DNA of 32,000 nucleotides from Candidatus Saccharimonadota bacterium (lineage in GTDB: Bacteria > Patescibacteriota > Gracilibacteria > UBA4473). The notes beneath the pieces are model-generated. The model saw only the letters and a program-made list of their open reading frames with translations, was not told where the DNA came from and searched no databases. Position numbers and translations under genes: made by a program. Below are positions 3,813 to 30,521 of this stretch, piece by piece; position 1 is the stretch's first letter, and each line of letters begins with the position of its first letter. The stretch covers positions 210,001 through 242,000 of the forward strand of contig JACKFV010000001.1 in NCBI GenBank assembly GCA_020632335.1, read 5' to 3'.

Positions 3813-5063
3813 TTACTCGTAGCGCAGTGCCGTGATGGCGTCCATCTGCGCTGCCTTCTTGGCCGGGCTATAGCCAAACACCGCCCCCACCACCACCGCC
3901 GTACCGATGCCCACCGCCACGGCTATGGGGTCAATGCTGAAGGCCCACTCATAGCCCTGCCGGCGCGCCAGCACCGCCACCAGGTAGCTGAGCGCCATGC
4001 CCAGCGCCGTACCAATGAGCCCCCCCAGCACCGTCAGCACGAGCGTCTCGGTGAGGAATTGCAGCCGTATAGACCCCGCTTTTGCCCCCAGCGCCTTCCG
4101 CAGGCCTATCTCCTTAGTGCGGCGCTGCACGTTAGCCAGCATGATATTCATAATGCCGATGCCCCCCACTATCAGGCTAATGCCCGCCACCAGCGCGAGA
4201 AACACCCGCACCGCACTGGTGATGCCCGTCACCATATTCAGCGCGTTCACCACCAGCCGCACGCTGAAGTCGCTCTCCTCGCCCGCCGCTATACGGTGCC
4301 GGTACCGCAGCCGCTGCTCCACGGCCTGCTGGACAAAGGACAGATAGCGGTCCTCGGTCACGCTTAGCCGCACTGCCTGGATGTAGTCTACCCCTGCCAG
4401 GCGCTTCTGCGCGGTGAGCACCGGCACATAGATGGTCTCGTCCGGGCTGCCAAATACCTGCGACCCCTTCTTCTGGAGGATACCCACCACGGTGTATTTC
4501 TCCTCGCCTATCGTCACCCGCTCGCGTAGCAGCCCCAGTGGCGAGGCCCCCGAGGGGCTCAGATCCTCCGCAATGGTGGCCCCCAGCACCACCACCCGCG
4601 CCGCACTGCGGTTCTCCTCCGCGGTGAAGAAGCGCCCCGCACGCATGGTCAGCCCGTCTACCAGCGCAAACCCAGGGCTGCGCCCCTCATAGCTCACGTC
4701 CAGTGTGGTCCGCCCATGCTGCAGCGTACTCGTGCTCTGGTAGACTGCCGTGACGCCCTCTATGTAGGGGATGTCCTCCAGCGCAAGCGAATCCTCGTAA
4801 GTGAGCGTGGTGACGAGTATCCCCTGCGCCGCCGCCGGGGGGCCGTTCTCATCCGACGCGCCGGCCAGTACTGTGATGGTCCGTGTACCCACCTTGGCGA
4901 TACTGCCCGTGATGAGGCTCTGCCCGCCGGCCCCCACGCTGATGATGGTGATGACGCTGGCCACCCCGATGATAATGCCCGCCATGGTGAGCAAACTGCG
5001 CCCGATATTCACCGCCAGTGCCCGCCACGACTGTGATACCGCCAGTGCTATCTCTCGGAGCAT
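3813..5063 (-). CDS. ABC transporter permease, MacB/FtsX family
   Basis: 416 aa with N-terminal TM 'LLTMAGIIIGVASVITIISVG' and a large extracytoplasmic domain. The C-terminal FtsX bundle carries 'RTKEIGLRKALGA'. ATG verified. There is no adjacent ATPase gene. Confidence 0.85.
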   Translation of the reverse strand: MLREIALAVSQSWRALAVNIGRSLLTMAGIIIGVASVITIISVGAGGQSLITGSIAKVGTRTITVLAGASDENGPPAAAQGILVTTLTYEDSLALEDIPYIEGVTAVYQSTSTLQHGRTTLDVSYEGRSPGFALVDGLTMRAGRFFTAEENRSAARVVVLGATIAEDLSPSGASPLGLLRERVTIGEEKYTVVGILQKKGSQVFGSPDETIYVPVLTAQKRLAGVDYIQAVRLSVTEDRYLSFVQQAVEQRLRYRHRIAAGEESDFSVRLVVNALNMVTGITSAVRVFLALVAGISLIVGGIGIMNIMLANVQRRTKEIGLRKALGAKAGSIRLQFLTETLVLTVLGGLIGTALGMALSYLVAVLARRQGYEWAFSIDPIAVAVGIGTAVVVGAVFGYSPAKKAAQMDAITALRYE

Positions 5064-5120
5064 ACTCTCAGTCTAGCCCAGCCAACGCCAAAAAACCAGC
5101 AGAAAGCCGGCTATACAGAG

Positions 5121-5190
5121 AAAAAAACTCAAGATACCGATATCAAAACCAAAGGATAGTAGTACAGATATAAATATCTTGAGTTTTTTT
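5121..5190. repeat. ~70-nt AT-rich imperfect palindrome; a possible bidirectional terminator or recombination-type hairpin 3' of the islet ORF
   Basis: 5121-5136 AAAAAAACTCAAGATA pairs perfectly with 5175-5190 TATCTTGAGTTTTTTT. The helix continues at 5140-5144 / 5167-5171 after a 3x3 internal loop. It sits 11 nt beyond the stop of ORF 5202-5972. Confidence 0.6.
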
Positions 5191-5201
5191 GTGAACAATT
5201 A

Positions 5202-5972
5202 TTATTGTCTCAGCGGGAGTATTTGTGCTTTACCTCCAGGGTAGGTTACCTTGGTATAGTCCCCTGGGAGAGCGATAATCTCTATGGGCCCATTAGAAGT
5301 TTCAATTTCTATCCGGGCTCCTTTCTCAAGAGATTTTAAAGTATTTTTTACCTTATCGACTGTTGCCTGGTTTAGTTCAACAGTCGAAACCTCGTAGCCA
5401 TTTTCAAATGCATTAAACAAGACATCACTAAGTCTTGTATGATTTGAAGTAGCTGCTATGGTTAGAGTTCTTAAGGGATCTCTTAAACGCTGAAATATAT
5501 TAAACGAACTAAGAAAACACTCAGCGAGTAGGACTCCTTCTTCGTTGTATATACTTGCTGTGGGCTCTACCCCATAGGTCTGGGAATAATGCCATTTCCC
5601 ATTATTACTGCGGATCGCCACGCCAGAGATCGGAAATCTTACACCGCTGTATTTTATTTCTACCCTCTTGGGTAGTAACGGTAAATTTTCTCGTTTTAAC
5701 TGGACATTTACCCAGTATTGAACGATTACATCCAATCCTTGATGGGATATAATCGGCTGCATCCAACGAGAAAACTCCTCTTGAGTTATGCTCTCTCGAA
5801 CACCAGCGAACAAGGCTCTCTCATGGGAATCCCAGATGGGATGTCTCTCATTAGCACTATTAGTAATGCTACCAAAATTTTTTGCAGCGTCATATGTTCC
5901 CGAGCTTCTGCAAGAAATAAGGTTAATAATCATGCCACCACATAGGATGGCGAAAAAGAATACTCTTTTCAT
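5202..5972 (-). CDS. Orphan lipoprotein in an AT-rich islet
   Basis: 256 aa. The signal peptide plus lipobox 'MKRVFFFAILCGGMIINLISC' fits L-I-S-C. I recognise no family. Hand-counted G+C is 23/60 and 25/60 in lines 5281-5340 and 5341-5400, against 37/60 in line 4981-5040. ATG verified. Confidence 0.6.
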   Translation of the reverse strand: MKRVFFFAILCGGMIINLISCRSSGTYDAAKNFGSITNSANERHPIWDSHERALFAGVRESITQEEFSRWMQPIISHQGLDVIVQYWVNVQLKRENLPLLPKRVEIKYSGVRFPISGVAIRSNNGKWHYSQTYGVEPTASIYNEEGVLLAECFLSSFNIFQRLRDPLRTLTIAATSNHTRLSDVLFNAFENGYEVSTVELNQATVDKVKNTLKSLEKGARIEIETSNGPIEIIALPGDYTKVTYPGGKAQILPLRQ

Positions 5973-6055
5973 TGTTGATATGGTTTTTTAGTGAAAAAAT
6001 AAGAGTCCTGCTACCCCGCCGCAGCCGAGTAGTATGGACGCTTACTCTTCACTTT

Positions 6056-6070
6056 TCGGTATCTTGAGTT
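6056..6070. repeat. Third copy of the islet-bounding repeat (TCGGTATCTTGAGTT)
   Basis: Perfect 15-nt inverted repeat of 5126-5140 (AACTCAAGATACCGA). It also shares the 11-nt direct repeat TATCTTGAGTT with 5175-5185. Confidence 0.7.
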
Positions 6071-6242
6071 ATAAAGGAACCCCAGAAGCAGCGGTATCCC
6101 TGCGCTTATGGTATATATAGTCTCTACCACAAATACTGCAAATAGTCAATATTTTTGTAGAATTTCCCCAGCGAGGAGCGCCATTTCCTTGACAGAAAGG
6201 CCCCGGGTTCTACTCTACCACTTGTATAAACGCCCGCGATTC

Positions 6243-6500
6243 ATGCCACTTATCCGATCTGCCATCAAACAAATGCGGCAAAACCGCACCCGTCGCCAGC
6301 GGAATCTCATCACCAAGCGACAGTATAAATCTCTGATGAAGCAGTACGAAACGCTGATAAAAGCCGGGGAGAAGGACAAGGCCGCGGCGCTCTACCCTCA
6401 GGTGCAGAAGTCACTCGACATGGCCGCGAAGAAGAACCTCCTCCACCCCAAGAACGCCGGGCACAAGAAATCACAACTGGCCAAGATGCTGGCCGCCTAA
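6243..6500 (+). CDS. rpsT: 30S ribosomal protein S20
   Basis: 'MPLIRSAIKQMRQNRTRRQRNLITKRQYKS...LLHPKNAGHKKSQLAKML' is an S20-type sequence. Homology begins at the internal ATG 6243, so the track ORF start 6108 is an AT-rich upstream extension. Confidence 0.9.
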   Translation: MPLIRSAIKQMRQNRTRRQRNLITKRQYKSLMKQYETLIKAGEKDKAAALYPQVQKSLDMAAKKNLLHPKNAGHKKSQLAKMLAA

Positions 6501-23607: not shown

Positions 23608-24492
23608 TTATATGGAGGCCCTCCGGCGTGTAAAGAGCCACACCACTCCCCGAGGCGCAAAGAACATACAGCTGATGAGCAGCGCTGCGTAGAGCAGGTT
23701 GCGTGCGGGGCCGATGAGCGCGTCCGGGAAGCCCACAAAGCGCGGCACCTCCCCCAGCAGCAGCACGATAACCGTGCCCCCTATAGCGCCCGAGAAGCTC
23801 CCCTGGCCCCCTACAATGAGCATGAGCAGGAGGAAAATAATCTCTGGGAGTGCGAAAATGCTGGGGTCGAGGAAGAGCCGGTAGTGCGCGTAGAGCCCCC
23901 CTGCCACCGCTGCAAAGGCCGCACTGAGCGTCAGGCTCCACACCTGCGAGCGGAAGGTATCCTTCCCGAGGCCCTTGGCGGCGATCTCGTCATGCGCGAT
24001 GGCCCGCTGCAACCGGCCAAATGGTGAGCGAAACAGCCGCCACAGCACCCACTGGCAGGCGATGACTATCACCAAGTAGAGCGCCAGCACGGCCCAGGAG
24101 CTGCTGAACTCAACCCCTAAGATGCTCGGCTGGCTGATGCCCCGTATGCCCATGGGGCCGTTGGTGAGGGAGATCCAGTTAGTGGCCACCACGATGGCGA
24201 TCATGGCTGCCCCGAGGGTGGCGATAGCGAGGTAGTGGCCGCTCAGCCGGAGGGTCAGTAGCCCCAGCACCGCGGCAAATGCCCCCGCGATGAGCGCCCC
24301 GAGGAGGAGATTCAGGAGGAAGGGCGAGCCAAACTGCGTGCTGAGGATAGCCGCCGTGTACGCCCCCATGCCGTAGAAGATGATGTGCCCGAGGTTAAAG
24401 AGCCCGGTGAGACCAAAGCTGAGGTTATAGCTCTGGGTCAGCAGAGACCAGATCGTCATGAGAATCGCCAGCGACAGGAGGTATTCGAGCAT
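23608..24492 (-). CDS. livM: Branched-chain amino acid ABC transporter permease LivM
   Basis: 'NLSFGLTGLFNLGHIIFYGMGAYTAA' is the LivM/LivH-family core. Start set at ATG 24492 ('MLEYLLSL'), because the longer track ORF overlaps the preceding AT-rich gene. Confidence 0.8.
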   Translation of the reverse strand: MLEYLLSLAILMTIWSLLTQSYNLSFGLTGLFNLGHIIFYGMGAYTAAILSTQFGSPFLLNLLLGALIAGAFAAVLGLLTLRLSGHYLAIATLGAAMIAIVVATNWISLTNGPMGIRGISQPSILGVEFSSSWAVLALYLVIVIACQWVLWRLFRSPFGRLQRAIAHDEIAAKGLGKDTFRSQVWSLTLSAAFAAVAGGLYAHYRLFLDPSIFALPEIIFLLLMLIVGGQGSFSGAIGGTVIVLLLGEVPRFVGFPDALIGPARNLLYAALLISCMFFAPRGVVWLFTRRRASI

Positions 24493-24497
24493 GAGGT

Positions 24498-24878
24498 CTA
24501 AATACGCCCAATAAAAAAGCCCAAAATAGCCCCGATAATACCAATGAGTGTGGGAATAAGTTTGTCTCCACGCACAAAGTTGACCCACTGTACTTTTCGA
24601 AAATATTCAAATCCGTGCAATTTTTCTTGTTGTTGCTGCTTAGCTTGTTCTTCTAATTTTGATAAATGTTTATAACCGGCATCCGTTATCATTAATATGC
24701 CGCTAGCATCGGATAGGAAGGGATGAAACGAAACATACCCATTCTTCTTCATTTTAGCAGTCTCTGTATACAAAGTGGCATTACTGGCCTCAATATATTC
24801 AAAAATATCAACTTTTTGGTGTTCTTTTCTGTCTTTGAGAGCTTGGAGAACCTGGTATTCGATGGTAGAAGAGGTCAT
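24498..24878 (-). CDS. AT-rich orphan gene: winged-helix-like N-domain, Gln/Glu-rich linker and C-terminal TM anchor
   Basis: 126 aa. 'YQVLQALKD...IFEYI...KKNGYVSF...GILMITDAGYKHL', then 'EEQAKQQQQEK', then TM 'IPTLIGIIGAILGFFIG'. It starts 9 nt after the livH stop and ends 5 nt before the livM ATG. G+C is 18/60 and 24/60 in lines 24601-24660 and 24661-24720. Confidence 0.55.
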   Translation of the reverse strand: MTSSTIEYQVLQALKDRKEHQKVDIFEYIEASNATLYTETAKMKKNGYVSFHPFLSDASGILMITDAGYKHLSKLEEQAKQQQQEKLHGFEYFRKVQWVNFVRGDKLIPTLIGIIGAILGFFIGRI

Positions 24879-24887
24879 GGGAATCTC

Positions 24888-25775
24888 TTAGTGTCTAATA
24901 GCAGTAAAGCGGGTACCAAAGAGCCCCGCGGGCTTGACCAGCAGCATGAGAATCAGTACCACAAAGGGAATAGCCGCGGTGAAACCACTAGGGATAACCC
25001 CATACCCCACCAGCAGGCTCTGCAAAATGCCGATGATATAAGCCCCCACAATGGCCCCCGGCACCGACCCCACCGCCCCGAGTATCAGCGCCGCAAAGGC
25101 CATAATGCCGATCTGCACGCCCATGGTGGGCTCCAGGTTCTGCTCATAGCCGAGGAAGACCCCCGCCACCGCGGCCAGTACCGTCCCGATGCCGAAGATC
25201 CACCGCATGGCGCTGTCCGCACTCAGCCCAAACATACTCGCCAGGCTGCGGTTACTACTGACGGCCCGCAGCATCTTCCCCGGCCGTGTGTAGGTGAGGA
25301 AGCTCTGCAGCCCCAGCATCAGCAGTAGCGAGGTCACCAGCGCGATAATCTGCACCGGGGTGGCCAGCAAATGCCCCGACAGCAGCGCCATGTTGGGCGC
25401 CGCGCCATCGCTAATGGTGAGGATACCAGCCCCAAAGCCGATGAGAATAAGCGCCTGGATGCCGATGCTCAGCCCAATAGAAACCACCAGCGGGATGAGC
25501 GCATCGCGGTCGCGCAGGGGGCGGAAGAAGACGCGCTCTATGAGGAGGCCCACCAGCAGCGTCACCCCGAGCGTCAGCAGCAGCGCGGGCACTACCGGCC
25601 AGCCCCAGTACTTGTGAGAGACCATAAAGCTATAGGCGCCCACCGCCACCAGCTCTCCGTGAGCGAACTGGAGGAAGCCCCCCACGCCGTAGATGAGAGT
25701 GAGCCCCAGCGCCACAAGGGCGATGAGGCTCCCGGTCACGATGCCATTCCAGAGCAGCTGGAGGAGAAGATCCAT
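24888..25775 (-). CDS. livH: Branched-chain amino acid ABC transporter permease LivH
   Basis: 295 aa. 'GVGGFLQFAHGELVAVGAY' is the family core. Its ATG overlaps the livK stop by 1 nt (TAATG). Confidence 0.85.
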   Translation of the reverse strand: MDLLLQLLWNGIVTGSLIALVALGLTLIYGVGGFLQFAHGELVAVGAYSFMVSHKYWGWPVVPALLLTLGVTLLVGLLIERVFFRPLRDRDALIPLVVSIGLSIGIQALILIGFGAGILTISDGAAPNMALLSGHLLATPVQIIALVTSLLLMLGLQSFLTYTRPGKMLRAVSSNRSLASMFGLSADSAMRWIFGIGTVLAAVAGVFLGYEQNLEPTMGVQIGIMAFAALILGAVGSVPGAIVGAYIIGILQSLLVGYGVIPSGFTAAIPFVVLILMLLVKPAGLFGTRFTAIRH

Positions 25776-29094: not shown

Positions 29095-30090
29095 ATGCAG
29101 AGCTTCTGGCATACCCTTCCTCGGCCGCTACTGGTACTGGCCCCCATGAGCGGCTACACCGAGAGCCCCTTCCGGCGGCTTATTAAGGGGATAGAGCCCA
29201 GCACCGTCCTGGTGAGCGAGCTTATCTCTGCGGAGGGAATGCGCCGTGGGAGCGAGAAAACGCTGCGGCTGTGTAGCTTCCACTCGGAGGAGAAGGGCTA
29301 CTACTGTGTGCAGCTCTTTGGCAAGTCGAGCGAGGCCTTCATCGACGCGGGGCAGATGGTGGAGGCGATGGGCGCTGATGGGATCGACATCAACCTGGGG
29401 TGCCCCAGCCCCAAGGTGGTGGGGTCTGGCCATGGGAGTGCGCTGCTGCGGGCCCCCTGCACTACGGCTGAGATGCTCCGGCAGTTGGTGCAGAGCGTTG
29501 GCATCCCCGTGAGCGTGAAGATGCGATTGGGGTTCTATGACAGTGGGCTGCTGCTGGAGACCGTGCGGGCCTTTGAGCAGGCGGGGGTGCAGAGCATAGC
29601 CATCCACGGCCGTACCACGAAGCAAAAGTACACCGGCCAGGCAGACTGGGAGCCGATCTATGCAGTGAAGGACAGCGTGGGCATCCCGGTCATCGGCAAT
29701 GGGGACATCACCAGCGCCTTGATAGCCGCGAAGAAGCTGCGGCACCTGGACGGGGTGATGATAGGCCGGGCGAGTCTGCGCAATCCTTATATATTTCGGC
29801 AGGTGCGAGCGGTATTTGACCAGCTGGCACGCGGCACAGCGCTGGAGGACGTGACGGTACCGCCTAAGCCCTCCCTCCCCCAGCAGCTGGACTTCTACCG
29901 GCATCATGCCACGCTCAGTACGGAGTTTAAGGGCGAGCAATGGGCTATGCGAGAGCTGCGGAAGCACTTTGCGCACTTTGTGCGGGGGGTGCGGTATGCG
30001 TCGGCCTTCCGTGAGCGGCTCATCCGGGTGGAGTCTCGCGCGGAGCTGGAGGCGATATTTGCGGAGATAGAGGAAGCAGCCAAGCACTAA
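29095..30090 (+). CDS. dusB: tRNA-dihydrouridine synthase (DusB-like)
   Basis: 331 aa. 'LAPMSGYTESPFRRL', 'IDINLGCPSPKV' (catalytic Cys) and 'IAIHGRT' are present. ATG verified. Confidence 0.88.
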   Translation: MQSFWHTLPRPLLVLAPMSGYTESPFRRLIKGIEPSTVLVSELISAEGMRRGSEKTLRLCSFHSEEKGYYCVQLFGKSSEAFIDAGQMVEAMGADGIDINLGCPSPKVVGSGHGSALLRAPCTTAEMLRQLVQSVGIPVSVKMRLGFYDSGLLLETVRAFEQAGVQSIAIHGRTTKQKYTGQADWEPIYAVKDSVGIPVIGNGDITSALIAAKKLRHLDGVMIGRASLRNPYIFRQVRAVFDQLARGTALEDVTVPPKPSLPQQLDFYRHHATLSTEFKGEQWAMRELRKHFAHFVRGVRYASAFRERLIRVESRAELEAIFAEIEEAAKH

Positions 30091-30101
30091 AAAGAGAGAC
30101 C

Positions 30102-30134
30102 AAAAAACCTGTAATTTCTCTCAAAATTACAGGT
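30102..30134 (-). terminator. Minus-strand rho-independent terminator with no annotated gene upstream of it
   Basis: Minus strand reads ACCTGTAATTT-TGAGAG-AAATTACAGGT followed by TTTTT. The stem is a perfect 11 bp (30107-30117 / 30124-30134). On the plus strand no T-run follows it. Confidence 0.6.
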
Positions 30135-30179
30135 ATTAACCTTAGTCAAGAAAATGATCACTTTGATACTCTATGGTAT

Positions 30180-30311
30180 CTAGTGACGTTCACCATTTTC
30201 ATTTACTTTTGCATCTGTTCGATGCAGATCGTTGCCGGCGGTATCAGGATAGATACAATTTTCTATTCTTGGACCGGCTGGTAAATAGTCTGGATTTTGA
30301 AAATTTTTCAT
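30180..30311 (-). CDS. Possible 43-aa small ORF in an AT-rich gap (too short for the ORF track)
   Basis: I translated it by hand as MKNFQNPDYLPAGPRIENCIYPDTAGNDLHRTDAKVNENGERH*. ATG at 30311-30309, TAG at 30182-30180, 45 nt upstream of the minus-strand terminator. There is no clear RBS, and it could be a chance ORF. Confidence 0.2.
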   Translation of the reverse strand: MKNFQNPDYLPAGPRIENCIYPDTAGNDLHRTDAKVNENGERH

Positions 30312-30398
30312 GATTTAGAATTTAATGTGTTTAAAAAAATTAATGTTTGGTGTCGACTCCAAATGGTTCTTTCCTTAACTGTATGTAAAAGATGTCAG

Positions 30399-30454
30399 CT
30401 AAGGATTCTCATAGAAAGGAAATAGAGAAACTGCCTCCCTGTGGGAATCCTTAG
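30399..30454. other. 10-bp inverted repeat (possible RNA stem-loop) in the AT-rich gap
   Basis: CTAAGGATTC (30399-30408) and GAATCCTTAG (30445-30454) enclose 36 nt. Confidence 0.3.
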
Positions 30455-30521
30455 AACTGAACACTTCTGACTCTGAAGATTCTGGGGCTGGTGTCAAGAA
30501 AAAAAGCAGAAAAACTCCCCC

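What the first reader, a model, noticed from the sequence alone, without database searches (positions are those of the whole stretch)
5121..6070. AT-rich single-gene islet bracketed by three copies of one repeat, including a ~70-nt palindrome (cassette-like geometry, no recombinase seen)
**Composition.** The orphan lipoprotein gene 5202-5972 lies in a compositional islet. G+C is 23/60 and 25/60 in lines 5281-5340 and 5341-5400, against 37/60 in the flanking line 4981-5040.

**Repeat copies at the edges.**
- Copy A: 5126-5140, AACTCAAGATACCGA.
- Copy B: 5175-5190, TATCTTGAGTTTTTTT.
- Copy C: 6056-6070, TCGGTATCTTGAGTT.

**How they relate.**
- A and C are a perfect 15-nt inverted repeat separated by 915 nt.
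- B and C share the 11-nt direct repeat TATCTTGAGTT on either side of the ORF.
- 5121-5136 pairs with B as a 16-bp stem, extended by 5140-5144 / 5167-5171. This forms a ~70-nt imperfect palindrome right after the ORF stop.

**Interpretation.** An ORF, a 3' imperfect palindrome and a copy of one palindrome arm at the 5' boundary is the layout of a mobile gene cassette or a hairpin-ended element. Comparable layouts are integron attC cassettes and IS200/IS605- or MITE-type ends. However, the integron core GTTRRRY is not matched (GTTATAA and GTTTTTT here). No integrase or transposase is present in the 32 kb. A simpler reading is a terminator plus a chance repeat, but a 15-nt perfect match sitting exactly at both edges of the compositional break argues against chance.
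Basis: seen in the sequence. Interest (0 to 1): 0.62.

Follow-up and report, generated by a model that had tools for sequence, protein, structure and literature searches.

The report
Foreign gene inside a split terminator hairpin
A 1-kb stretch of AT-rich imported DNA with one orphan lipoprotein gene appears to sit inside a broken-and-rebuilt transcription-terminator hairpin, and three other imported genes in the same tiny genome show the same layout, which hints at how such genes get in but fits no known mobile-element family.

Summary
In detail: all three repeat copies, the ~70-nt palindrome and the AT-rich islet are real.

- **Not a dispersed repeat.** The 14-mer occurs only at these two places in the 703-kb genome.
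- **The gene.** It encodes a real secreted lipoprotein of a rare, uncharacterised family. A distant homologue is native to a 34% GC genome.
- **The palindrome.** It starts 11 nt after the stop codon and ends in U7. I read it as the gene's intrinsic terminator.
- **The far copy C.** It is the exact complement of the distal terminator arm, including three bases that the proximal arm B fails to pair. Deleting 5171-6055 in silico restores a perfect 19-bp hairpin plus U-tract.
- **Recurrence.** Three other AT-rich islets in this genome have the same layout with unrelated sequences. This exceeds non-cognate pairings, mirror-sequence controls and native genes (p about 1e-3).

Best reading: a horizontally acquired, moron-like gene unit lodged in a terminator palindrome that was rebuilt. 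Membership of integron attC, IS200/IS605, MITE and REP families was tested and not met.

The mechanism is inferred. The scan had already judged other AT-rich orphan islets of this genome ordinary. What is new here is the recurrent split-terminator geometry.

The parts
5112..6165 (.). AT-rich compositional islet (40% G+C in a 59% G+C genome)
   Evidence: Log-odds segmentation gives C1:215112-216165, which is window 5112-6165. The sliding G+C profile agrees.
5202..5972 (-). Single gene: 256-aa predicted lipoprotein (signal peptide with lipobox LISC) of a rare uncharacterised family
   Evidence: - ORF listed.
- No Pfam, PHROG or NCBIfam match.
- Absent from the 60 relatives searched.
- Distant homologues: P0002 (E 1e-10) and P0003 (E 1e-6).
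- P0003 is native to a 34% G+C genome.
- One further homologue lies in a gammaproteobacterial MAG.
5121..5190 (-). About 70-nt imperfect palindrome: the likely intrinsic terminator of the islet gene. Layout is A7, a 16-bp stem, a 3x3 internal loop, a 5-bp stem, a 22-nt loop, then U7.
   Evidence: - Arms 5121-5144 and 5167-5190.
- RNA fold -26.7 kcal/mol, z = -6.5.
- It starts 11 nt after the stop codon and lies 57 nt upstream of the macB start.
5126..5140 (.). Copy A: core of the distal terminator arm (the 3' arm A' in gene sense)
5175..5190 (.). Copy B: the proximal terminator arm (B' in gene sense). It pairs with the outer part of A plus the A/T run. It has TTT where a perfect partner would have CCG.
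6056..6070 (.). Copy C: the perfect complement of A, including CCGA. It lies 83 nt upstream of the start codon.
   Evidence: Found. The motif occurs only twice in the genome.
5171..6055 (-). Inferred insert (885 nt). Removing it in silico restores a perfect 19-bp hairpin, AACTCAAGATACCGATATC / GATATCGGTATCTTGAGTT, with a 22-nt loop followed by U7 in minus sense. The junction is ambiguous by 1 nt (5172-6056 is equivalent).
   Evidence: and for the simpler join.
5991..6052 (-). Stable leader hairpin with a conserved stem base, GTGAAGA...TTTTTTCAC. It is one of three copies in this genome.
   Evidence: - Fold -31.1 kcal/mol, z = -6.2. The larger leader fold gives z = -4.0.
- The other copies lie at C1:205581 and C1:599718.
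- A covariance model finds only these three copies and none in 42 relatives.
6069..6079 (-). T-rich junction motif TTCCTTTATAA (consensus TTCYTTKATAG), immediately 5' of copy C in gene sense. It is shared by all four islets with this geometry.
   Evidence: Found. Not enriched at other islet edges. Its role is unknown.
6121..6149 (-). Weak candidate promoter: TTGACT, 17 nt, TAGAGA. If it is used, copy C lies in the 5' UTR.
   Evidence: Read directly from the sequence. The consensus scan did not report it. Native promoters here look like TTGACA-17-TAGnnT.

Best explanation
Window 5112-6165 is a horizontally acquired, moron-like single-gene unit.

**What is there.** An AT-rich orphan lipoprotein gene (5202-5972, minus strand) with a structured leader. 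It is followed by an intrinsic terminator, the 5121-5190 palindrome, which shields the downstream macB gene.

**How the three repeats relate.**
- A (the distal arm) and C (the far copy) are the two halves of one perfect terminator palindrome. The gene now separates them.
- B is a near-copy of the displaced arm at the gene-proximal end of the intervening DNA. It rebuilds a working hairpin with A and the U-tract.

**Inferred history.** Foreign DNA entered, or was captured in, one arm of a pre-existing terminator hairpin, four bases from its loop. The terminator was then reconstituted. This resembles the way elements that integrate into tRNA or small-RNA 3' ends rebuild their target.

**What is shown and what is inferred.**
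- Shown: the composition, the uniqueness of the repeat, the fold, the exact complementarities, the restored 19-bp hairpin on in-silico deletion, the recurrence at three other islets and its statistics, and the absence of the relevant recombinases.
- Inferred: terminator function, the direction of history (insertion rather than a designed element), and the enzyme or repair process responsible.
For: 1. **Foreignness.**
   - G+C is 40% against 59% for the genome.
   - The gene is absent from 60 relatives.
   - Apart from the window's own protein, only P0003 appears among 5.8 billion proteins, and only in the profile search. An all-against-all HMMER search finds two distant homologues.
   - One homologue is native to a 34% G+C genome.
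2. **Terminator reading.** The hairpin gives -26.7 kcal/mol at z = -6.5. It starts 11 nt after the stop codon and is followed by U7. Native terminators in this genome have the same A-run, stem, T-run style.
3. **C is tied to A, not to B.** C matches rc(A) over 15 nt, including CCGA. B has TTT at that spot. Removing 5171-6055 gives a perfect 19-bp stem plus U7.
4. **Recurrence with unrelated sequences.** In each case below, joining the two flanks gives a clean hairpin followed directly by a T-run.
   - C1:389677-389741 with 390190-390201: 12 nt, or 15 of 16.
   - C1:621522-621535 with 622103-622116: 14 nt.
   - C1:243642-243652 with 243974-243984: 11 nt.
5. **Statistics.**
   - Of 28 single-gene islets, 4 have at least 11 nt of 5'/3' complementarity, against 8 of 756 non-cognate pairings.
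   - At 12 nt or more: 3 of 28 islets against 5 of 666 native ORFs. At 14 nt or more: 2 of 28 against 1 of 666.
   - Of 56 terminator-like hairpins, 7 have an upstream complement of the 3' arm of at least 10 nt. The figures are 1 for downstream and 0 and 0 in two mirror controls.
   - Inverted repeats of at least 12 nt bracketing low-GC DNA: 5, against 0 in the control.
6. **Same rule in three islets.** The proximal arm pairs the outer part of the distal arm plus the T-run. The far copy pairs the inner part, covering exactly the positions where the proximal arm is defective.
Against: - **No empty site.** The nearest relatives are only 43-50% identical at MacB and are not syntenic. Logan contigs of the same population are identical to the window.
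- **The origin of arm B is unexplained.** Its pairing with the A/T run here, and with seven further outer bases at the 389.7-kb islet, is too good for chance. The diagnostic bases (CCG against TTT) also lie on the wrong sides for a crossover inside the 11-nt shared core. Neither a simple target-site duplication nor conservative site-specific recombination therefore fits.
- **No gene for the inferred ancestral terminator to stop.** At this locus it would point away from any upstream co-oriented gene, because rpsT is divergent.
- **Limited scope.** Only 4 of about 28 single-gene islets show the geometry, all in one genome.
- **Non-canonical hairpin.** It is AT-rich with a 22-38-nt loop, and the canonical terminator scan did not call it.
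Confidence: 0.5

Rival explanations
1. Functional long-range RNA pairing. Copy C lies in the 5' UTR. It serves as a second partner for the 3' terminator arm, forming a 5'-3' panhandle or an alternative helix. This could stabilise the mRNA, or secure termination when a ribosome at the stop codon masks the proximal arm.
For: - C complements the distal arm exactly, rather than copying the proximal arm. That is the signature expected of selection for pairing. It holds in three to four islets with private sequences.
- A weak TTGACT-17-TAGAGA promoter upstream would put C in the transcript.
- The proximal arm starts 3-11 nt after the stop codons, within a ribosome footprint.
Against: - The local hairpin (-26.7 kcal/mol) should out-compete a partner 900 nt away.
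- Both helices end in the same U-tract, so switching between them gives no regulatory logic.
- The helices are perfect with abrupt ends and no G-U pairs or mismatches. That looks like a copy or junction rather than a selected RNA helix.
- No such enrichment is seen at 62 terminator hairpins in a relative's genome.
- The transcription start is unknown, and a T-rich upstream motif 20-35 nt before many start codons could be the real promoter region.
Confidence: 0.15
2. Non-autonomous transposon of the mobile-insertion-cassette or MITE-with-cargo type. A and C are 15-bp terminal inverted repeats of an element spanning 5126-6070. B is a subterminal sequence that folds against one end. The transposase acted in trans and is gone.
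For: - Perfect 15-bp inverted repeats bracket one passenger gene.
- The same bracket occurs at three other islets.
- T-rich sequence lies on both outer sides, and a shared T-rich motif sits next to the far repeat. This could reflect a T-rich target preference.
- The genome does hold IS-like genes elsewhere.
Against: - There is no convincing target-site duplication at any of the four islets (direct reading of the sequences).
- Each islet has different repeat sequences, which would need a different transposase each time.
- There is no second copy of any repeat and no IS with matching ends in the genome.
- The proximal arm also pairs with the T-run outside the supposed element.
Confidence: 0.12
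3. An ordinary terminator plus a chance repeat.
For: AT-rich DNA has many short repeats. The 11-nt copies, such as 5779-5789, are at chance level. Mirror controls reach 10-13 nt.
Against: - A 15-nt exact match is expected about 0.06 times per window, even allowing 2 mismatches in a 14-mer.
- There are two more islets with 14 and 12 nt.
- Cognate pairs exceed non-cognate pairs (4 of 28 against 8 of 756) and exceed native genes.
Confidence: 0.05
4. An integron-type cassette with an attC-like site, or an IS200/IS605-type hairpin-ended element, moved by a structure-specific recombinase.
For: An imperfect palindrome sits 3' of a promoter-poor ORF. Each unit has private sequences, as attC sites do. 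No recombinase lies nearby, as with CALIN arrays.
Against: - There are no R''/R' cores.
- The far copy complements the distal arm, not the proximal one.
- It is a single unit, not an array.
- The only tyrosine recombinase is Xer-like: 119 bits on the integron-integrase model against a cut-off of 265.
- There is no Y1 HUH transposase.
Confidence: 0.03

Closest known systems
Morons and AT-rich ORFan islets. Morons are defined as independent transcription units spread by horizontal transfer (PMC3594210, abstract seen). Small laterally acquired orphan-gene islets are the same idea in chromosomes.
   Same: One gene with its own leader and terminator. Deviant composition. Wedged between core genes. 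No mobility gene.
   Different: Morons are defined in phage genomes. No inverted-repeat bracket or split terminator is part of their description. Here the unit lies in a bacterial chromosome and no phage relative was found.
Integrative elements that land in the 3' end or terminator of tRNA or small-RNA genes and rebuild it. [quoted passage not shown] That the site overlaps the sRNA terminator (Balbontin et al. 2008) is from my own knowledge; that paper was not read here.
   Same: The target is a hairpin with dyad symmetry. The incoming DNA carries a near-copy of the displaced part, so the structure is rebuilt. A short direct repeat (11 nt here) remains at both junctions.
   Different: - There is no integrase in or near the islet.
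- The element is one gene, not a prophage or island.
- The diagnostic bases lie on the wrong sides for a crossover inside the shared core.
- Targets and repeats differ at each islet.
Integron gene cassettes (attC)
   Same: A single ORF followed by an imperfect palindrome with a private sequence. No recombinase within the unit.
   Different: The core sites, the polarity of the 5' copy, the array context and IntI are all missing.
Mobile insertion cassettes and MITEs with cargo (for example MIC231 of Bacillus cereus; from my own knowledge)
   Same: Terminal inverted repeats around a passenger gene, with no transposase.
   Different: No target-site duplication, no cognate IS, a single copy, and different repeats at each islet.
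IS1397/ISKpn1-type insertion into loops of REP palindromes, and class C group II introns that target terminators (from my own knowledge)
   Same: Palindromic or terminator hairpins act as preferred landing sites.
   Different: Those are autonomous elements with their own enzymes and fixed ends. None of those features is present here.

Membership tests
Integron gene cassette / attC | Imperfect palindrome with R'' (RYYYAAC) and R' (GTTRRRY) core sites | tested here: not met
   In gene sense the arms read AAAAAAACTCAAGATA and TATCTTGAGTTTTTTT. Neither contains the cores.
Integron gene cassette / attC | The 5' end of the cassette carries the last bases of R', so it is identical to the distal arm and complementary to the proximal arm | tested here: not met
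   Copy C is complementary to the distal arm A (15 nt) and shares a direct repeat with the proximal arm B (11 nt).
Integron gene cassette / attC | An IntI integrase with attI, or an array of cassettes | tested here: not met
   The genome has a single PF00589 hit. It scores best as XerC/XerD. On the integron-integrase model it reaches 118.8 bits against a cut-off of 265. The unit is single. The genome is 89% complete.
IS200/IS605 and PATE elements | A Y1 HUH transposase in the genome, and similar subterminal hairpins at both ends | tested here: not met
   No PF01797 hit. Only one end has a hairpin.
MITE / mobile insertion cassette | Terminal inverted repeats | tested here: met
   A 15-bp perfect inverted repeat at 5126-5140 and 6056-6070.
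MITE / mobile insertion cassette | A target-site duplication of fixed length flanking the repeats | tested here: not met
   The flanks are ...GAGAAAAA on one side and ATAAAGG... on the other. At most there is a trivial AAA. No consistent duplication exists at the other three islets.
MITE / mobile insertion cassette | Several copies, or a parent IS with the same ends | tested here: not met
   The 14-mer occurs only at these two places in the genome.
REP/BIME-type dispersed palindromes | Many copies spread through intergenic regions | tested here: not met
   Two occurrences only. Perfect hairpins of at least 12 bp are rare genome-wide: 14 in total.
Intrinsic (Rho-independent) terminator | A stable stem-loop directly followed by a U-tract, just downstream of a gene | tested here: inconclusive
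   The structure gives -26.7 kcal/mol at z = -6.5, is followed by U7, and starts 11 nt after the stop codon. But the stem is AT-rich and long, with a 22-nt loop, and the canonical scan did not call it. Function cannot be tested with these tools.
Horizontally acquired ORFan islet / moron-like unit | Deviant composition, a self-contained single gene, and absence from relatives | tested here: met
Integrase-mediated insertion at an RNA-gene or terminator att site | A direct repeat (core) at both junctions, with flanks exchanged as expected for a crossover within the core | tested here: not met
   The 11-nt direct repeat is present. However, the four bases next to the core (CCGA at the far copy, TTTA at the proximal copy) are on the opposite sides from those expected.
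Integrase-mediated insertion at an RNA-gene or terminator att site | An integrase gene at one end of the element | tested here: not met
   No recombinase lies in the islet. The nearest is the Xer-like gene about 11 kb away, outside the window.

The most novel reading that the evidence does not exclude
The four islets could be products of an undescribed, structure-guided way of slotting single foreign genes into terminator hairpins. In this reading the incoming DNA carries an arm matched to the target's distal arm and U-tract, so that a terminator is rebuilt. A short conserved junction motif, TTCYTTKATAG, would mark the other end. No element-encoded recombinase would be needed.

This would be the terminator counterpart of the recombinase-less, target-matched cassettes that this scan has flagged at tRNA T-loops in other candidate-phyla bacteria (note e1-2036944, unchecked).
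Probability: 0.15. Interest if true: 0.8.

Novelty: new variant of a known kind. Interest (0 to 1): 0.45.

Why it matters
Ultra-small CPR genomes carry many orphan genes of foreign composition, and nobody knows how these enter genomes that have almost no mobility genes.

If foreign genes are repeatedly lodged in terminator palindromes that are then rebuilt, three things follow:
- It gives a concrete, testable route for gene gain.
- It explains why the newcomers are transcriptionally insulated from their neighbours.
- It offers a sequence signature for dating and delimiting insertions without needing relatives: a far copy that perfectly complements the distal terminator arm.

If the alternative RNA reading is right, it would be a new case of 5'-3' end pairing in bacterial mRNAs. 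As it stands, this is a lead from one genome, not a demonstrated system.

Tried and rejected
- **Empty-site search.**
  - MacB orthologues in 43 family genomes reach at most 50% identity and have no rpsT or Fer2 next to them.
  - The metagenome scan reached 43% at best.
  - Exact-protein look-ups of MacB, S20, Fer2 and the 142-aa neighbour returned only three additional short Logan contigs (besides L004) from two runs, all 100% identical to the window.
- **Read-level test for excised or empty junctions.** I did not feed run ids from elsewhere into read laying.
- **Function of the protein.**
  - No match in Pfam, PHROGs or NCBIfam, and only weak PDB sequence matches (best E 0.41).
  - AlphaFold without an alignment gave pLDDT 40, which is unusable, so no fold search was run.
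  - No viral relative was found.
- **Rfam.** Nothing in 4800-6500.
- **Same test in a relative.** The first 400 kb of closed genome G015 turned out to be 39% G+C, so it has no AT-rich islets to compare. Its 62 terminator hairpins show no upstream-complement excess.
- **RNAduplex energies.** Cognate against non-cognate flanks were uninformative, because GC-rich flanks dominated. I replaced this with exact-match lengths.
- **Templates for the hairpin spacers.** None was found, apart from an 11-mer at the 389.7-kb islet that copies the end of dnaA in inverted orientation. Its significance is borderline.
- **Junction motif TTCTTTTATAG.** It is not enriched at other islet edges: 5 inward hits against a mean of 2 and a maximum of 7 for shuffled motifs. 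There are no unsplit sites with the motif followed by a hairpin.
- **CCGTAG...CTACGG hairpins at three islet edges.** Judged a hexamer coincidence.
- **A 13-nt copy of the native terminator at C1:204343.** It lies 3.9 kb away inside coding DNA and was judged chance.
- **Models considered and rejected as complete explanations.** Each leaves either B's or C's extra complementarity to A unexplained in at least one islet.
  - A simple target-site duplication.
  - A Campbell or att crossover inside the 11-nt core.
  - A circle opened at its hairpin.
  - Inversion between A and C.
Full report
**Where this is.** The window is C1:210001-242000 of a two-contig, 703-kb genome that is 59% G+C and 89% complete. 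I did not verify the name. At the macB loci of 24 family relatives G+C is 33-48%, and a closed relative is 39%. This genome is therefore a GC-rich outlier in an AT-rich family.

**Observation.**
- A and C are a perfect 15-nt inverted repeat. B and C share 11 nt as a direct repeat.
- The palindrome has 24-nt arms, 5121-5144 and 5167-5190, at 88% complementarity.
- As minus-strand RNA it folds at -26.7 kcal/mol, z = -6.5.
- The 14-mer CGGTATCTTGAGTT is expected 0.06 times in the window even with two mismatches. It occurs only at these two places in the whole genome. It is therefore neither chance nor a REP-type dispersed repeat.
- The AT-rich segment runs from 5112 to 6165. Copy C lies about 95 nt inside the right edge.

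**The gene.**
- ORF 5202-5972 (minus strand) encodes 256 aa with a lipoprotein signal (…LISC).
- It has no Pfam, PHROG or NCBIfam match and only weak PDB matches (best E 0.41). It has no homologue in the 60 relatives searched.
- A word-indexed search of 5.8 billion proteins returned only a fragment of the protein itself.
- An exhaustive HMMER search found two true distant homologues of similar size and membrane-anchored architecture: P0002 (E 1e-10) and P0003 (E 1e-6).
- P0003 sits among housekeeping genes of a 34% G+C genome at native composition. Another homologue lies in a gammaproteobacterial MAG. None is in viral contigs.
- The gene is therefore real, rare and imported from low-GC organisms. 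The structure prediction was too poor to use.

**The islet is one of many.** The genome has about 40-49 low-GC islets, mostly holding one orphan gene. Several abut tRNA genes. One has a 13-nt duplication of a tRNA 3' end. Earlier follow-ups in this scan judged several of these islets to be ordinary laterally acquired orphan genes. I agree at that level.

**What the palindrome is.** It begins 11 nt after the stop codon, ends in U7 in gene sense, and lies 57 nt upstream of macB on the same strand. Native terminators of this genome have the same A-run, stem, T-run design. I read it as the islet gene's intrinsic terminator. This is inferred. The canonical scan did not call it, because the stem is AT-rich and the loop is long.

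**What the third copy is.**
- In gene sense the order is C', leader, ORF, B', 38 nt, A', U7.
- B' equals the reverse complement of A' over 24 nt, except that it has TTT where a perfect partner needs CCG.
- C' has exactly that CCG. It is AACTCAAGATACCGA, a 15-nt perfect complement of A'.
- So C' is tied to A' by complementarity and is not a copy of B'.
- Removing 5171-6055 (885 nt, junction ambiguous by one base) joins GATA (5167-5170) to TCGGTATCTTGAGTT (6056-6070). This yields a perfect 19-bp hairpin with the existing 22-nt loop, followed by U7.

**Recurrence.** The same search over the genome found the same layout at other AT-rich islets, each with unrelated sequences.
- *C1:389.7 kb.* A 112-aa membrane-protein gene lies between dnaA and trxB. 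It has a 16-bp A4/T4 hairpin 3 nt after the stop codon. A 12-nt (15 of 16) complement of the distal arm lies 106 nt upstream of the start.
- *C1:621.5 kb.* A 154-aa lipoprotein gene lies between convergent genes, bracketed by a 14-nt perfect inverted repeat.
- *C1:243.6 kb.* An 11-nt example.
- In all four islets, joining the flanks gives a clean hairpin directly followed by a T-run.
- In the three islets with a local hairpin, the proximal arm pairs the outer part of the distal arm plus the T-run. The far copy pairs the inner part, covering the positions where the proximal arm is defective.

**Statistics.**
- Inverted repeats of at least 12 nt bracketing low-GC DNA: 5, against 0 for a complement-only mirror control.
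- Longest edge-to-edge inverted repeats in 39 islets: 15, 14, 12 and 12, against a control maximum of 10 and of 13 in the two mirrors.
- Of 56 terminator-like hairpins, 7 have an upstream complement of the 3' arm of at least 10 nt. The figures are 1 downstream and 0 and 0 in the mirrors.
- Cognate 5' (250 nt) against 3' (120 nt) flanks of 28 single-gene islets reach 11 nt or more in 4 cases, against 8 of 756 non-cognate pairs. The Poisson probability is about 2e-4.
- Crude native ORFs give 21 of 666 at 11 nt or more, 5 of 666 at 12 or more, and 1 of 666 at 14 or more. The islet excess holds at p about 1e-3, on small numbers.
- A relative's 62 terminator hairpins show no such excess.

**Known families.**
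- *Integron attC.* The cores are absent and the polarity of the far copy is opposite. There is no array. The only tyrosine recombinase is Xer-like.
- *IS200/IS605.* There is no Y1 transposase and only one hairpin.
- *MITE or MIC.* Terminal repeats are present, but there is no target duplication, no second copy and no parent IS.
- *REP.* Only two copies exist.
- *Integrase att logic.* An 11-nt direct repeat is present. But the bases next to it lie on the wrong sides for a crossover inside the core, and no integrase is there.
- The genome's one serine recombinase lies in a different AT-rich island, at 358-361 kb.

**Mechanism, and how far it is supported.**
- The reading that explains most is this: the foreign DNA lies within one arm of a terminator palindrome whose two halves are now A and C, and B rebuilds the terminator.
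- This resembles elements that integrate into tRNA or small-RNA 3' ends and restore them. The Salmonella sdsR locus is a known landing site (PMC3333887).
- What it does not explain is where B comes from. B's complementarity to the T-run, and at 389.7 kb to seven further outer bases, is too good for chance. A simple target duplication or short-homology crossover does not predict it.
- Snap-back templated synthesis at a broken hairpin arm, or selection among insertion events for those that regenerate a terminator, would account for it. Both are speculation.
- The main rival is a functional 5'-3' RNA pairing. It explains the perfect complementarity. It is weakened by the much stronger local hairpin, by the lack of any regulatory logic, and by the abrupt, mismatch-free helices.

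**Other things in the region.**
- The leader between C and the start codon forms a very stable hairpin (5991-6052, -31 kcal/mol). Its conserved stem base, GTGAAGA...TTTTTTCAC, recurs at two other genes of this genome only.
- An 11-nt T-rich motif (consensus TTCYTTKATAG) abuts the far copy in all four islets. It is not enriched at other islet edges. I leave it unexplained.

**What could not be done.** No closer relative exists in the collections searched. The direction of history and the transcript ends therefore remain untested.

Noticed in passing
window 5991-6052 (-); also G000:C1:205581-205634 (+) and C1:599718-599766 (-): A family of three very stable leader hairpins (-28 to -33 kcal/mol). 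The stem base is conserved in sequence (GTGAAGA ... ATTTYTTCACT), while the interior varies but stays paired. Each sits 20-40 nt upstream of a start codon. A covariance model finds only these three copies and none in 42 family genomes. The inverted repeat of the 243.6-kb islet (GTGAAGCCTGC / GCAGGCTTCAC) looks like a split fourth member.
   Followed up: partly
window 6069-6079 (-); C1:390214 (-), C1:621511 (+), C1:243995 (-): A T-rich motif, TTCYTTKATAG, lies immediately 5' of the far repeat copy in all four islets with the split-hairpin geometry. Two of the four match at 10 of 11 positions at the same offset. It is not enriched at other islet edges, and no unsplit site with the motif followed by a hairpin was found. 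Similar motifs directly precede some tRNA genes.
   Followed up: partly
window 5990-6000 (-) and upstream of at least 5 other genes (C1:142622, 205625, 599727; C2:20488): The sequence ATTTTTTCACT, followed by 15-35 A/T-rich bases and then ATG, recurs before several islet genes and some non-islet genes. It could be a promoter-proximal or ribosome-loading element in an organism that largely lacks Shine-Dalgarno sequences.
   Followed up: no
whole genome against family relatives (loci L006-L029, G015): This genome is 59% G+C. All 24 sampled family relatives are 33-48% at their macB loci, and closed genome G015 is 39%. The AT-rich islets may therefore come from, or resemble, the family's ancestral composition.
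   Followed up: partly
window 5787 and 5983 (ends of Logan contigs L004, L141, L142): Contigs from two independent runs both begin at exactly 5983, and another ends at 5787. All are identical to the window. The shared break inside the islet could be low coverage or a branch in the assembly graph caused by population variants.
   Followed up: partly
window 24482-24908 and 30055-30514: Two further low-GC islets lie in the same window. The first carries a 126-aa orphan ORF (24498-24878, minus strand). The second has no ORF of at least 70 aa and an 11-nt direct repeat (GCAGCCAAGCA) at its edges.
   Followed up: no
G000:C1:358331-361000: A 2.6-kb AT-rich island carries the genome's only serine recombinase (about 457 aa) and an IS1-like zinc-finger ORF. 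It is bracketed by a 12-nt inverted repeat, CACAGGTTATCA. A separate IS1595-like ORF lies at C1:429629-430306.
   Followed up: no
G000:C1:389709-389719 against 390280-390290: The spacer of the terminator hairpin at the 389.7-kb islet contains an inverted 11-nt copy of the last codons plus stop codon of the upstream dnaA gene (GTGAAATAATT). This may be a templated patch at an insertion junction. Its significance is borderline.
   Followed up: partly
39 islets, genome-wide: Short direct repeats of at least 10 nt at the two edges of islets are more frequent than in the mirror controls: 13 of 39, against 2 of 39 and 5 of 39. This hints that short-homology joining is a general feature of how these islets were inserted.
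   Followed up: partly
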